A stretch of DNA of 64,000 bases, taken from positions 892 to 64,891 of IMG/VR virus record IMGVR_UViG_2823715266_000003. The stretch is one strand, 5' to 3'. The DNA is from a virus. Taxonomy: Duplodnaviria; Caudoviricetes. Position 1 is the first letter of the stretch. Every line of letters begins with the position of its first letter. The notes beneath the pieces are model-generated. The model was not told where the DNA came from, did not search any database, and saw only the letters and a program-made list of their open reading frames with translations. Positions 24,185-56,381 of the stretch are shown in pieces. Both the position numbers and the translations under genes were made by a program.

Positions 24185-24763
24185 TCAGACGGTCAGGCTC
24201 AGGCGGTAGCCGATGTCGTAGGTGTCACCGTTCTGGAACACGCGCGCGGCAGCGTACTTCGTCGCCGACACCAGCGCACCGGTGGTGCCGCCGCGCGTGT
24301 TGTTCGTGAGCATGGCCGCGCCGGTCACGTTGAGCTGGCCGGCGGTGGCGATGGTGACCGTGGCGACAGCCGCCATGTTGTCGATGGAGCCGGTACTCGT
24401 GTTTGCCGAGGTCCAGGCCGGCCGGGTGGGGCTGGTGTAGCCCTCGGTGAGGCTGACGATTTCAGATGCCGAGGCCGCGAAGTTGGCGGCCGTCCAGTTG
24501 TCGGCCGGCGCCGCCGCGCCGCTGAACAGGGCCAGGAAGTAGCCCGCCGGCTTGGCCGTGCTGCCCAGCGCCACGTTCAGGATGTGAGCCAGCCCTTCGA
24601 TGACGATCTTGTTCTTGGTACGGCTCCACTCGCCGCCGTTGATGCGGTCGAAGTACTCGCCTTGTGCGAGCACGCCCTGCCGGGGGAAGTAAATGCCCTG
24701 CTCGGTGACATCATAGGTTTCGCGGTTCAGGTCCGCAGCCAGCTCTTTGCGCAGCGTCGTCAT
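24185..24763 (-). CDS. Phage tail structural protein
   Basis: 192 aa; NKIVIEGLAHILNV...GYTSPTRPAW...LVSATKY beta-rich tail-type sequence; SD GGAG. Confidence 0.75.
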   Translation of the reverse strand: MTTLRKELAADLNRETYDVTEQGIYFPRQGVLAQGEYFDRINGGEWSRTKNKIVIEGLAHILNVALGSTAKPAGYFLALFSGAAAPADNWTAANFAASASEIVSLTEGYTSPTRPAWTSANTSTGSIDNMAAVATVTIATAGQLNVTGAAMLTNNTRGGTTGALVSATKYAAARVFQNGDTYDIGYRLSLTV

Positions 24764-24787
24764 AGGAAGCTCCAGTAGTCCTATGCC

Positions 24788-24799
24788 GCACTCCTGCGC
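24788..24799 (-). repeat. GCGCAGGAGTGC GGA-loop hairpin, copy 1 of 3
   Basis: Identical 12-mer at 24788-24799, 30959-30970 and 31413-31424, each in a translation-initiation region. Confidence 0.75.
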
Positions 24800-24835
24800 A
24801 GCGATGATTCCCGGATTCCCCGGGGGTGGAAGCCC

Positions 24836-30626: not shown

Positions 30627-30953
30627 TCAGTCCTTCAGCACGCCCAGCGGCGTCTCGTTCGACCAGTAGCCCTTTGCCTCGTGCCAGGCGCTGTACTCGC
30701 CCATGAGCACATCGTCGCCGCGCTGGCCAGTGAAGCGCAGCGCGTAGTCGATGGCCCATTCCTGGCTGTCGCAGCCGGGCGGGCACGGCGCCAGCTCGTG
30801 CACGAACATTTGGAATGGCGGCAGCGCGCCCACCATGCGCCAGTTGATGACCGGCACCGCCGCCGGCGTCAGCTCGATGGGCTTCGGAGCGATGCCTTCC
30901 ACGCCGATGATGAGCGGCGGCGGTTTCTGCGGCGCGGCCGCGGGCGATTGCAT
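30627..30953 (-). CDS. Hypothetical phage protein
   Basis: 108 aa from MQSPAAAP; SD AGGAG lies inside the GGA hairpin. Confidence 0.65.
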   Translation of the reverse strand: MQSPAAAPQKPPPLIIGVEGIAPKPIELTPAAVPVINWRMVGALPPFQMFVHELAPCPPGCDSQEWAIDYALRFTGQRGDDVLMGEYSAWHEAKGYWSNETPLGVLKD

Positions 30954-30958
30954 GTCTT

Positions 30959-30970
30959 GCACTCCTGCGC
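30959..30970 (-). repeat. GCGCAGGAGTGC GGA-loop hairpin, copy 2 (overlaps SD)
   Basis: Exact 12-mer repeat. Confidence 0.75.
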
Positions 30971-30979
30971 TCCCCACGG

Positions 30980-31387
30980 TCAGACCTTGAAGATCTTGTT
31001 CGTGCCGTTGTCCCAGGTGACGATGATGTCGCCGCCGTTGGGGGTGATCGGCAGGCCCGTGGCCGTGTCGATGTAGGCGATCAGCGGCGACGTGGCCTCG
31101 GTGCCCGTGTCGCGGTAGATCACGATGGCCTCGATGCTCGCGCCCGAGACGGCCGTGAACGTCACGTCGGCGCCATCGGCCGCTCCGCCGGTGGTGGTCT
31201 TCGCGGTCAGCGTAACCGGTCCCGCGATGCGTGCCGAGATCGGGATGTCCGCGAGGTACTGGTGGATGGCCGTCTGCGGCGTGTATGCGCCGGTGTCGAC
31301 CAACAGAACCTTGATGGTGTCGGTTGCCCAGTTGAGCTGGGCTTCCAGGAAGCGCTGCCGCGCAGCGTCATACAGGGTGTTTGCCAT
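30980..31387 (-). CDS. Small phage tail/virion structural protein
   Basis: MANTLYD...DTIKVLLVD...SPLIAYID...TPNGGDIIVTWDNG, a recurrent phage structural family. Confidence 0.8.
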   Translation of the reverse strand: MANTLYDAARQRFLEAQLNWATDTIKVLLVDTGAYTPQTAIHQYLADIPISARIAGPVTLTAKTTTGGAADGADVTFTAVSGASIEAIVIYRDTGTEATSPLIAYIDTATGLPITPNGGDIIVTWDNGTNKIFKV

Positions 31388-31589
31388 TTGCGGCCTCTTC
31401 AGCGGAAGAAGCGCACTCCTGCGCGCCGGTGGTTGCGCGCCCGGCTGGGCGCTGGATGGAGGTGCTCGCGTCGGCGCAGATGGCGAGACGCGCGCGCTGC
31501 CCCGACTTGTGCGAGAGCGTCACCAGCGTGTTGCCGATGCGCACTGTCTCGCCGACGCGGAGCTCAACGTGGACCAGGGTCGTGCTCAT
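31368..31589 (-). CDS. CsrA/RsmA-like small RNA-binding protein
   Basis: LVHVELRVGETVRIGNTLVTLSHKSGQRARLAICADASTSIQR aligns by eye with CsrA [43 protein letters not shown]; ATGA overlap with upstream gene. Confidence 0.7.
   Translation of the reverse strand: MSTTLVHVELRVGETVRIGNTLVTLSHKSGQRARLAICADASTSIQRPAGRATTGAQECASSAEEAANGKHPV
31413..31424 (-). repeat. GCGCAGGAGTGC GGA-loop hairpin, copy 3
   Basis: Exact 12-mer repeat about 25 nt upstream of ATG 31387. Confidence 0.75.
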
Positions 31590-32281
31590 GGGAGGATCAG
31601 CACGTTGTGGTGTGGAACATCCTCGCGCGTGATGCGGCGCAGGTCGCTGTCCGGCATCGGCCCGAAGTAGGCGGTGAACCCGGCCTCTGCCCTGTCCGAG
31701 CGCGCAGGGTCGAATGCCTCGGTGTCGGGGATGCTGAAAGCCTTGTGCAGCGCCCACAGCAGCAGGTGCTCATGGTGTGTCTTGTGGATCTCGGGGGAGC
31801 CACGGACCACCGGCGGCGGCGAGCCGGCCGGCGGCAGCGCCATCGGCTCCAGCGGCGTCCGATAGCACTCGAGCACGATTACGTCGCCAACCTCGATGGT
31901 GCCGACCACCCGCAAAGAGGTGTCGTCCTGAATCACGAAGCACGTCGGGTCCGCACGTTCGCGCCAGCCAGGCATCTCGGCATCCAGCCATTCCCGCGAA
32001 ACGAGCTTGAGCGGGCGCGGTCGGTCGCCGTTGGCAGGCTGTAGGTGCAGGCTGATGATCTCGAACACCGCCGCATGCAGCGGATACACGGCCTGGCCGC
32101 CCGCGAGGGTGATGCGGCACACAGCAGGGTTCGCATCCTCGCGCAGCAGCCGGCCGCGCACGGCGGCCTGCTGCTCTGCGTCGTTCAGCCAGTCAACGAC
32201 ATCGGCATCCGCCCAGAAATAGGGCTGCAGCTTGTCGTTGGACAGGACGCGGAAGCGTCGGATCAAGTCCTGCAGGGTCAT
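31586..32281 (-). CDS. Putative head-tail adaptor protein
   Basis: MTLQDLIRRFR...WADADVVDWLNDAEQ...HEHLLLWALHKAF, adaptor-like; located after capsid genes. Confidence 0.65.
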   Translation of the reverse strand: MTLQDLIRRFRVLSNDKLQPYFWADADVVDWLNDAEQQAAVRGRLLREDANPAVCRITLAGGQAVYPLHAAVFEIISLHLQPANGDRPRPLKLVSREWLDAEMPGWRERADPTCFVIQDDTSLRVVGTIEVGDVIVLECYRTPLEPMALPPAGSPPPVVRGSPEIHKTHHEHLLLWALHKAFSIPDTEAFDPARSDRAEAGFTAYFGPMPDSDLRRITREDVPHHNVLILP

Positions 32282-56112: not shown

Positions 56113-56381
56113 AGCGCCTCGGCTACTCCTTCCCCCTGGTGCCCGCACCCGCTGACCAGCCCACGCTGGTGGGCTCGGTCAACGCGGACGACCACCGCCC
56201 CGGCCGCATGCCTCGCTCGCTCGAAGACGCCTTCGGCCCCGGCCAGCGCTCGAGCACCACGCGGCTCTACGTCGCACTCCCGCGCCGCCAACGCATCGGT
56301 GAGGCGGTGGCAACCGCCGTGTCCGCGCTCGCCGGCCTCTTCGTCATCGCCCTCCTCATCTACGAAAGGATCGCATCGTGA
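56109..56381 (+). CDS. Hypothetical membrane protein
   Basis: PRSLEDAFGP motif; C-terminal TM helix. Confidence 0.65.
   Translation: MKRLGYSFPLVPAPADQPTLVGSVNADDHRPGRMPRSLEDAFGPGQRSSTTRLYVALPRRQRIGEAVATAVSALAGLFVIALLIYERIAS

What the first reader, a model, noticed from the sequence alone, without database searches (positions are those of the whole stretch)
31368..31589. Phage CsrA/RsmA-like protein with three identical GGA-loop target hairpins in the tail operon
Seen: a 73-aa coupled ORF whose first ~48 aa follow the CsrA pattern (RVGET..IG...V....G..AR.AI.A....I.R). The 12-mer GCGCAGGAGTGC (GCA-GGAG-TGC hairpin) occurs exactly at 31413-31424, 30959-30970 (this copy is the SD) and 24788-24799, always just upstream of a small tail gene. 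Established: CsrA/RsmA proteins bind GGA in hairpin loops near the RBS. Inference: a self-contained translational control circuit that sets tail-protein stoichiometry.
Basis: partly seen in the sequence, partly recalled or inferred. Interest (0 to 1): 0.8.

Follow-up and report, generated by a model that had tools for sequence, protein, structure and literature searches.

The report
Phage CsrA-like gene with conserved leader hairpins
A small phage protein with the fold of the bacterial RNA-binding regulator CsrA sits beside a 12-base RNA hairpin that is kept letter for letter ahead of three virion genes in many related phages, which suggests a phage-owned switch on protein synthesis that nobody has yet tested.

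Summary
ORF 31589..31368 (-) encodes a divergent CsrA-fold protein: PHROG 8397 E=1.2e-17, family profile to PDB CsrA/RsmE E=6e-8, and an AF2 model 0.7-1.6 A from CsrA chains. It is the orthologue of Pseudomonas phage F116 gp47, which RefSeq already calls 'CsrA-like regulator'.

The 12-mer occurs three times exactly. That count alone is weak, since 92 other 12-mers do the same. Conservation is what makes it real. It sits at the same three leaders in F116 (protein 47% identical), in 33 of 33 F116-like records and always on one strand. It is read in two different frames inside the gene's tail. It follows the CsrA-like gene within 330 nt in 28 of 45 diverse viral contigs.

The conserved core is GCGCA-N-GAGUGC, not GGA: N is G, U, A or C in relatives and often pairs with the start region. 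The CsrA Arg44 equivalent is not conserved.

The hairpin always abuts or overlaps a helix that hides the next gene's ribosome site or start codon.

Best reading (about 0.55): the protein binds this hairpin and gates translation of the three genes. Binding, direction and 'stoichiometry' are untested. This is a new variant of a known kind.

The parts
31368..31589 (-). CsrA-like ORF, 73 aa. Residues 1-50 form the CsrA beta core. Residues 51-73 form a low-confidence tail overprinted on the hairpins and on the next gene's start.
   Evidence: The tail is read in a different frame in F116.
31586..32281 (-). Upstream gene: head-tail adaptor (SU10_adaptor family). Its stop overlaps the CsrA-like ATG (ATGA).
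   Evidence: PF24175, E=1.3e-27; phrog_399.
31410..31427 (-). Site 1 hairpin HP1: 7-bp stem with AGGA loop, containing the 12-mer 31413-31424. It lies inside the 3' tail of the CsrA-like ORF.
   Evidence: Conserved.
31396..31409 (-). Site 1 hairpin HP2: CUUCUUC / GAAGAGG stem that pairs the Shine-Dalgarno of the next gene. The loop varies in relatives. F116 and 8P have a different sequence (GCUCCA / UGGAGC) that does the same job.
30980..31387 (-). Gene after site 1: 135 aa, PHROG 644, unknown function (called 'minor tail subunit' in some records). 90% identical to its F116 counterpart.
30959..30970 (-). Site 2: the 12-mer serves as the Shine-Dalgarno (AGGAG) of the next gene. It also contains an in-frame GTG (30962-30960).
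   Evidence: N is always G at this site in relatives.
30627..30953 (-). Gene after site 2: 108 aa from ATG 30953, PHROG 11163, unknown function. In the closest relatives the ATG is ACG or ACC, so they may start at the GTG inside the 12-mer.
24785..24802 (-). Site 3 hairpin HP1: 7-bp stem with AGGA loop, containing the 12-mer 24788-24799. It lies in a non-coding leader.
   Evidence: A 43-nt leader is nearly invariant in relatives; 23 nt are identical in F116.
24761..24785 (-). Site 3 hairpin HP2': CAUAGGA / UCCUAUG stem that pairs the AUG start codon, with the Shine-Dalgarno GGAG in its loop.
   Evidence: A different sequence gives the same design in L082 and L085.
24810..24824 (-). Hairpin H0 between the upstream stop codon and site 3. 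Its stem sequence varies with compensatory changes in relatives.
24185..24763 (-). Gene after site 3: 192 aa, PHROG 8123, unknown function.

Best explanation
The 73-aa ORF encodes a divergent member of the CsrA fold family (PHROG 8397, orthologue of F116 gp47). It is made late in infection by translational coupling to the adaptor gene.

The 12-mer is the sequence-conserved core of an RNA stem-loop, GCGC-ANGA-GUGC, extended to 7 bp at sites 1 and 3. The stem-loop stands in the leaders of three virion-module genes. At each site it directly abuts, or in other phages overlaps, a helix that hides the ribosome-binding site or start codon of the next gene.

The proposed mechanism is that the CsrA-like dimer binds this stem-loop and so changes access of ribosomes to the three start regions.
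- At site 2 binding would cover the Shine-Dalgarno itself.
- At sites 1 and 3 binding would stabilise or release the neighbouring start-hiding helix.
- At site 1 translation of the ORF's own tail across the hairpins adds translational coupling.

Shown: homology and fold; conservation, strand specificity and gene linkage of the element; the start-hiding helices.
Inferred: that this protein is the binder; that the effect is on translation; the direction of the effect.

The target differs from canonical CsrA sites. The invariant part is GCGCA-N-GAGUGC, not GGA.
For: Protein:
- PHROG 8397 E=1.2e-17.
- A profile of 70 family members hits only CsrA/RsmE among its top 9 PDB sequences, best 2jpp at E=6e-8.
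- 34 of 70 members match Pfam CsrA at E<=0.01.
- The AF2 model has pLDDT 89-95 over residues 1-40 and 84 over 41-50. The top 14 listed Foldseek PDB rows are all CsrA/RsmA/RsmE, rmsd 0.7-1.6 A over 36-47 alignment columns.

Element:
- Found in 11 of 11 close loci.
- Present at all three orthologous sites in F116, whose protein is 47% identical.
- GCGCANGAGTGY occurs in 33 of 33 F116-like records: 26 with exactly 3 copies, 3 with 4, 3 with 2, 1 with 1. All 98 copies lie on one strand per record, against 2 hits for the reversed control in 37 records.
- The 12-mer is translated as AQEC in the window and as RRSA in F116, so the constraint is on nucleotides. 42 of 80 family proteins carry one of the two imprints.

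Linkage:
- Among 45 diverse IMG/VR loci picked by protein, the motif lies within 330 nt downstream in 28, on the gene's strand in 32 and on the other strand in 0.
- Among 72 loci picked by leader pattern alone, 45 have a CsrA-like ORF within 500 nt upstream (E<=1.2e-8) and 3 more have one about 0.9 kb upstream.
- Homologues of the 135-aa gene in 2 of 2 phages without the CsrA-like gene lack the motif.

Start-hiding helices. In capsid-gene leaders of other phages the 12-mer itself pairs with the spacer or AUG (7-9 bp). N covaries as G:C, A:U, U:A or G:U. 8 of 28 loci beat 95% of shuffles.

Host: no CsrA hit over the cut-off in the Variovorax genome with the closest prophage.

Literature: knock-down of a csrA homologue in coliphage PTXU04 gives smaller plaques (PMC11879866, passages).
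Against:
- The window protein is below Pfam's CsrA cut-off.
- The Arg44 equivalent is R only in the window's clade. It is N in F116, which still has the GGA form of the loop, and P/T/V elsewhere.
- The first G of GGA is replaced by U or A at sites 1 and 3 in 9 of 33 F116-like records (18 of 18 instances are U or A). It is G 13, U 10, A 3, C 2 in the wider set. Canonical CsrA would not tolerate this (recalled knowledge).
- The four stem pairs next to the loop show no compensatory changes, so the local hairpin is not proven by covariation. Folding energies are not better than shuffles (z -0.5, +0.2, -0.8).
- Part of the variation in N is explained by RNA-RNA pairing alone.
- One lineage (L144, L171, L195, L200) has the leader motif ahead of a capsid-type gene with no CsrA-like ORF in the stored locus, up to 14 kb.
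- 13 of 45 protein-picked loci have no strict motif on the gene's strand.
Confidence: 0.55

Rival explanations
1. The hairpin and its start-hiding helices form an autonomous RNA device read by host machinery. Ribosomes would act through translational coupling or standby binding, or an RNase through processing or stabilisation. The CsrA-like protein would do something else: bind host mRNAs for take-over or anti-defence, or travel in the virion. The gene and the leader would merely travel together as a cassette.
For: - The helices hide the SD or AUG without needing a protein.
- At site 1 the ORF always runs across the hairpins into the next start, whatever the frame, which is what pure translational coupling needs.
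- N covaries with an RNA partner.
- The motif is SD-like (AGGAG) and is the SD at site 2.
- The L144 lineage has the motif without a nearby CsrA-like gene.
- Published ideas for phage CsrA homologues are host manipulation and CRISPR-Cas repression (PMC8450108, passages) and possible virion association of the JC1 protein, from one peptide (PMC9144972, passages).
Against: - RNA-RNA pairing alone would let both strands drift, yet 11 of 12 bases are fixed across phages of Variovorax, Pseudomonas and many unknown hosts, and at three sites whose pairing partners differ.
- In the window the start-hiding strand lies beside the 12-mer, not in it, so the 12-mer needs another reason to be conserved.
- The motif is found next to this one gene family in 45-48 of 72 pattern hits. 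CsrA homologues were found in only 30 of 2517 phage genomes in one survey (PMC7366521, passages).
Confidence: 0.3
2. The 12-mer is a DNA site, such as an operator or promoter element for a DNA-binding protein of the late module, rather than an RNA element.
For: - Strict sequence conservation without stem covariation is typical of protein-DNA sites.
- At site 1 the motif has partial dyad symmetry, GCGCA-N4-TGCGC.
Against: - Always the coding strand: 98 of 98 copies, and 0 of 45 loci with a copy on the other strand.
- Always 3-42 nt upstream of a start codon, or inside the preceding ORF's end.
- It doubles as the SD at site 2.
- N covaries with a downstream RNA partner.
- The dyad is short and is broken at sites 2 and 3.
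Confidence: 0.05
3. The three copies are a chance repeat of a GC-rich, SD-containing word, and the CsrA likeness is coincidental.
For: - 92 other 12-mers occur three or more times in the window.
- Many SDs in these phages contain GGA.
- The single-sequence Pfam and PDB hits are weak.
Against: - Conservation at orthologous sites across 33 records and in F116.
- The two-frame imprint.
- Profile and fold matches to CsrA.
Confidence: 0.02

Closest known systems
CsrA / RsmA / RsmE (Pfam PF02599), bacterial translational regulators
   Same: - Homologous beta core by profile and by predicted fold.
- Small size.
- The proposed target is a short stem-loop at or near the ribosome-binding site.
- In this window the loop reads AGGA, which contains GGA.
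   Different: - Below Pfam's cut-off.
- No C-terminal helix in the model; the tail is low-confidence and overprinted on RNA elements.
- The Arg44 equivalent is not conserved in the family.
- The conserved target is GCGCA-N-GAGUGC, with N free and the stem sequence fixed. It is not A(N)GGA in a stem of any sequence.
- No CsrB/RsmZ-type decoy RNA was found (Rfam).
- The gene is dedicated to neighbouring phage genes rather than to a global regulon (inference).
F116 gp47 (YP_164311.1), Bcep22 gp54, PEp14 gp9: 'CsrA-like regulator', PHROG 8397
   Same: - Same family.
- F116 gp47 has the same position (after the adaptor-like structural gene, overlapping the next gene) and the same three 12-mers.
- Bcep22, BcepMigl, Darius and PEp14 carry the gene just before the capsid gene, with a related hairpin and a start-pairing strand in the capsid leader.
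   Different: - 47-51% identity only.
- F116 also carries a second, canonical RsmM-type CsrA, YP_164288.1 (PMC7366521), which this provirus lacks.
- None of these proteins has a described target, as far as my searches show.
Phage translational repressors with RNA operators: MS2/Q-beta coat protein with the replicase operator hairpin, T4 RegA, T4 gp32 (recalled; T4 review PMC3014915 seen only in a search listing)
   Same: A phage-encoded small protein proposed to bind a defined hairpin or RBS region of phage mRNAs and gate their translation. As with RegA, several operators are served by one protein.
   Different: - Unrelated folds.
- Here the operator is coupled to a start-hiding helix, so binding could activate as well as repress.
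- No biochemical evidence exists.
Translational coupling through SD-sequestering hairpins, as in MS2 coat-lysis/replicase or ribosomal protein operons (recalled)
   Same: At site 1 the next gene's SD is paired, and the upstream ORF ends 20 nt past the next AUG. Upstream ribosomes must therefore melt the hairpin.
   Different: This does not explain the sequence-invariant 12-mer, nor sites 2 and 3, where no ORF runs across the element.

Membership tests
CsrA (Pfam PF02599) | Sequence match above Pfam's gathering score | tested here: not met
   15.8 bits, E=0.014, against a cut-off of 27. 34 of 70 family members reach E<=0.01, best 3.2e-9.
CsrA (Pfam PF02599) | Homology to solved CsrA/RsmE proteins | tested here: met
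   The family profile has CsrA/RsmE as its top 9 PDB hits, E from 6e-8 to 0.018. The single sequence reaches only E=0.23.
CsrA (Pfam PF02599) | Five-stranded beta core of the protomer | tested here: met
   AF2 pLDDT is 89-95 for residues 1-40 and 84 for 41-50. The Foldseek top 14 listed rows are all CsrA-family chains, rmsd 0.7-1.6 A, target-normalised TM (TMt) 0.56-0.78. DSSP on the monomer model calls only three strands, as expected for a chain whose other strands pair in a dimer (inference).
CsrA (Pfam PF02599) | C-terminal alpha helix | tested here: not met
   No helix in the model. Residues 51-73 have pLDDT about 50.
CsrA (Pfam PF02599) | Interleaved homodimer | not testable with these tools
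CsrA (Pfam PF02599) | Conserved RNA-binding Arg44 (importance recalled from the literature) | tested here: inconclusive
   R47 aligns with R44 of RsmE. The position is N in F116, P/T/V in 8P-like phages and varied in the wider family.
CsrA (Pfam PF02599) | Targets carry GGA in a hairpin loop near the RBS | tested here: inconclusive
   Met in this window: AGGA loops at three leaders. In relatives the first G is U, A or C at the non-SD sites.
PHROG 8397 'CsrA-like regulator' | Profile match over the whole protein | tested here: met
   E=1.2e-17, residues 7-62 on profile positions 4-59 of 64.
F116-like (Hollowayvirus-like) structural module | Synteny of capsid, adaptor, CsrA-like gene and downstream genes with F116 | tested here: met

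The most novel reading that the evidence does not exclude
PHROG 8397 proteins are a new specificity class of the CsrA fold. They recognise a 12-nt hairpin, GCGCA-N-GAGUGC (GAG plus a fixed stem, not GGA), that acts as or abuts an anti-start strand. Binding would flip the leader between a closed and an open state. The protein would then be a phage-autonomous translational timer for capsid genes (Bcep22-like phages) or neck and tail genes (F116-like phages). It would work even in hosts that have no Csr system, such as Variovorax and Burkholderia.
Probability: 0.35. Interest if true: 0.8.

Novelty: new variant of a known kind. Interest (0 to 1): 0.65.

Why it matters
CsrA homologues in phages have been catalogued (PMC7366521, PMC8450108). 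They have been discussed as tools for manipulating the host.

A 2025 paper states that their role in the phage life cycle had not been tested before its own knock-down, which gave smaller plaques (PMC11879866, passages).

The present analysis gives one large subfamily a concrete candidate target. The target is a 12-base element, fixed across dozens of diverged phages, located in the start regions of the phage's own virion genes and wired to start-hiding helices.

That turns 'what do phage CsrA proteins do?' into a simple bench question in F116 and PAO1: gel shift, leader fusions and a gp47 knock-down.

If the protein binds GCGCA-N-GAGUGC, it would also be a natural example of retargeted specificity on the CsrA scaffold.

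Tried and rejected
- Folding energy. RNAfold z-scores for the three leaders are -0.50, +0.23 and -0.76. Thermodynamics alone gives no support.
- Count statistics. Three exact copies looked significant but 92 other 12-mers do the same. I dropped the count as an argument.
- Protein-RNA covariation. I asked whether R47 goes with G in the loop. F116 (N47, loop G), L096 (R, loop C) and the spread do not support it. Rejected as evidence.
- Canonical GGA model. Rejected as the family rule because of 8P, Dartukuta and others.
- lambda/P22 boxB-type antiterminator site. Considered from memory and rejected: the loop is not GNRA-like, and site 3 lies downstream of the H0 hairpin.
- 16S anti-SD pairing as the reason for conservation. 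It explains AGGAG only, not GCGC...GUGC (reasoned, not computed).
- Expression. The look-up of sequencing runs listed no RNA holder.
- Rfam. Only the tRNA was found.
- The search for related loci with the 70-sequence alignment failed for lack of a conserved stretch. A 16-sequence alignment worked.
- The Bcep22 paper PMC3187461 is not held. The F116 genome paper (Byrne and Kropinski 2005) was not looked up. Either may discuss the gene. Supplementary tables of PMC7366521 were not opened.
- My statement that the operator is undescribed rests on searches only.
- The number of chance hits expected for the pattern was not computed by a tool. Calling 14 of the 72 hits 'chance' is my own reading.

Full report
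**What is there**

The window is almost the whole of a 64,891-base IMG/VR provirus record. Its minus strand from about 35.7 kb down to 1.1 kb carries a virion module syntenic with Pseudomonas phage F116.

ORF 31589..31368 (73 aa) starts with an ATG that overlaps the stop of the adaptor gene (ATGA; PF24175). It ends 20 nt inside the next gene, whose ATG is at 31387.

**Is it more than chance?**

The shuffle test for this word gives 0.08 expected copies. However, 92 different 12-mers occur three or more times in this 66% GC window. The count therefore proves nothing on its own. Conservation does.

- All 11 close loci (one Variovorax paradoxus prophage and ten IMG/VR contigs, protein 75-96% identical) carry the word. 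Seven have three copies. Three have two because the stored locus is short. One (L002) has two because a different gene replaces the site 2 gene.
- Alignments show the word as an island. At site 2 the flanks differ while AGCGCAGGAGTGCA is fixed. At site 3 a 43-nt leader is nearly invariant between diverged coding sequences.
- F116, whose protein is only 47% identical, has the exact word at all three orthologous places.
- Of 37 records searched with GCGCANGAGTGY, all 33 F116-like ones have it: 26 with three copies, 3 with four, 3 with two and 1 with one. All 98 copies lie on one strand per record. The reversed control gives 2 hits. The four Bcep22, PEp14, Darius and BcepMigl records have none. 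The 31 IMG/VR records among these were picked by their site 3 leader, so only the other copies and the strand are independent.
- In the phage collection, 37 Pseudomonas records and one 'Bacillus' record have the protein. The same numbers have the site 3 leader.

**The protein**

- Pfam CsrA is below threshold, but PHROG 8397 'CsrA-like regulator' matches at 1.2e-17.
- A search of 1.84 billion representatives gave 72 relatives.
- A 70-sequence profile finds CsrA/RsmE as its nine best PDB sequences, best at 6e-8. 34 of the 70 match Pfam CsrA.
- The AF2 model is confident for residues 1-50 and poor for the tail. Its 14 best listed PDB neighbours are all CsrA-family chains at 0.7-1.6 A.
- It is therefore a CsrA homologue without the C-terminal helix.
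- R47 aligns with the RNA-binding Arg44. That position is Asn in F116 and Pro/Thr/Val in 8P-like phages.

**The constraint is on nucleotides**

In the window the 12-mer is read as A-Q-E-C. In F116 and its kin it is read as R-R-S-A, in another frame. Among 80 family proteins, 31 carry A[QH]EC and 11 carry R[RMK]S[AV] in the tail. The last residues (GKHPV) are the overprint of the next gene's conserved start, MANTLYD.

**GGA is not the invariant**

At site 2, where AGGAG serves as the Shine-Dalgarno, N is always G. At sites 1 and 3, nine records, including phages 8P and Dartukuta, have U or A in 18 of 18 instances. In 28 further loci N is G 13, U 10, A 3 and C 2. The fixed part is GCGCA-N-GAGUGC.

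**RNA architecture**

RNAfold draws a 7-bp stem with an AGGA loop at sites 1 and 3.

Directly after it at site 1 comes a hairpin that pairs the next gene's SD: CUUCUUC/GAAGAGG. Its loop varies (CGCU, UCCA, UCCU, UACU). In F116 and 8P a quite different pair, GCUCCA/UGGAGC, does the same job.

At site 3 the next hairpin (CAUAGGA/UCCUAUG) pairs the AUG and shows the SD in its loop. L082 and L085 keep the design with other letters.

In phages where the CsrA-like gene precedes the capsid gene, the motif lies 21-104 nt after the stop codon and about 24-42 nt before the capsid ATG. There its 3' part pairs with the spacer or AUG over 7-9 bp in about eleven loci. N pairs as G:C, A:U, U:A (the A of AUG) or G:U. 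8 of 28 loci beat 95% of shuffles. Bcep22, Darius and PEp14 show the same pairing with changed letters on both strands.

The element is thus always wired to a helix that hides the start region.

**Linkage to the gene**

Picked by protein (KSGQRARL core), 45 new diverse loci have the strict motif within 330 nt downstream in 28, anywhere on the gene's strand in 32, and on the other strand in 0.

Picked by leader pattern alone, the 72 loci split as follows:
- 45 have a CsrA-like ORF within 500 nt upstream (E<=1.2e-8).
- 3 have one about 0.9 kb upstream.
- 4 are site-3-type leaders of F116-like phages.
- 14 look to me like chance matches in coding sequence.
- 2 are undetermined.
- 4 (one lineage: L144, L171, L195, L200) are capsid-type leaders with no CsrA-like ORF in the stored locus.

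Homologues of the 135-aa gene in a mycobacterial prophage and in a Pseudanabaena phage, which lack the CsrA-like gene, lack the motif.

The Variovorax genome with the closest prophage has no CsrA hit over Pfam's cut-off. Its best hit is the prophage gene itself.

**How it most likely works**

The simplest account of an 11-of-12 fixed word is a dedicated trans factor. The word is strand-specific, stands in three leaders with different pairing partners, and travels with one small RNA-binding-fold gene. The CsrA-like protein is the obvious candidate for that factor. I put about 0.55 on it binding the hairpin and gating translation.

The direction is open. Where the motif overlaps the anti-start strand (capsid leaders), binding should open the start region, which means activation. 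In this window the motif abuts the start-hiding helices and is the SD at site 2, which fits repression or holding.

'Setting tail stoichiometry' is an inference I cannot test.

The main rival (0.3) is an autonomous RNA device read by ribosomes or RNases, with the protein acting on host RNAs or in the virion (PMC8450108, PMC9144972). A DNA site (0.05) and chance (0.02) fare poorly.

**What is known**

RefSeq already names F116 gp47 and its kin 'CsrA-like regulator'.

The Pseudomonas CsrA survey lists for F116 a different, canonical protein, YP_164288.1 (PMC7366521, passages). This provirus has no second CsrA-like hit.

I found no paper that mentions the 12-mer in this context or any target of these proteins. 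The Bcep22 and F116 genome papers were not available to me.

I class the finding as a new variant of a known kind: a phage-encoded RNA-binding regulator with operators, built on the CsrA fold with a non-GGA target.

Noticed in passing
window 35926, 38184, 44830, 46741 (12-mer CCCTACAGGGGG as read on the + strand): A four-copy box, one of only five 12-mers with four or more copies in the window. Its complement, ACCCCCTGTAGGG, is also shared with the F116 locus in non-coding DNA. A similar CCCCTGTAGGG stands upstream of the CsrA-like gene of phage 8P. It is probably the late promoter or regulator box that other notes on this genome mention.
   Followed up: partly
window 30980-31387 (-): The 135-aa protein after site 1 is about 90% identical to its F116 counterpart. 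It is 55-63% identical to proteins of 396 mycobacteriophage records, where it lies next to minor tail and lysis genes. That is unusually high conservation across phyla for a protein of unknown function.
   Followed up: partly
window 30951-30977 (-) and loci L001, L003, L010, L011: The ATG at 30953 of the site 2 gene is ACG or ACC in the closest relatives. Their only conserved in-frame start is the GTG inside the 12-mer, so the start codon itself may sit in the hairpin.
   Followed up: partly
window 24810-24824 (-): Hairpin H0, between the upstream stop codon and site 3, keeps its pairing with different letters in relatives (CCCGG/CCGGG, CCCGA/UCGGG, ACCC/GGGU). No U-run follows it. It may be an RNA 3'-end or stability element.
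   Followed up: partly
L118 3946 and 3980; L119 1497 and 1531; L158 near 1957: Some viral contigs carry two copies of the 12-mer in tandem, 34 nt apart in L118 and L119, in one leader. That spacing would suit a two-site dimer.
   Followed up: no
records W01 (8P) 46903, G002 547, G027 1597; window 56274-56285: Extra copies of GCGCATGAGTGC lie outside the virion module in three relatives. The window has a one-mismatch copy (GCGCGGGAGTGC). Their contexts were not examined.
   Followed up: no
L144, L171, L195, L200: One lineage has the 12-mer leader ahead of a capsid-type gene (MSQTVI...) with no CsrA-like ORF in up to 14 kb of stored sequence. It is the clearest exception to the gene-motif linkage.
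   Followed up: partly
L051 (phage vB_BspP_Dartukuta) 1172-1200: This record, labelled as a Bacillus phage, has an F116-like module. The annotated start of its site 2 gene (1172) lies upstream of the 12-mer. An ATG 3 nt after the 12-mer looks like the better start.
   Followed up: no
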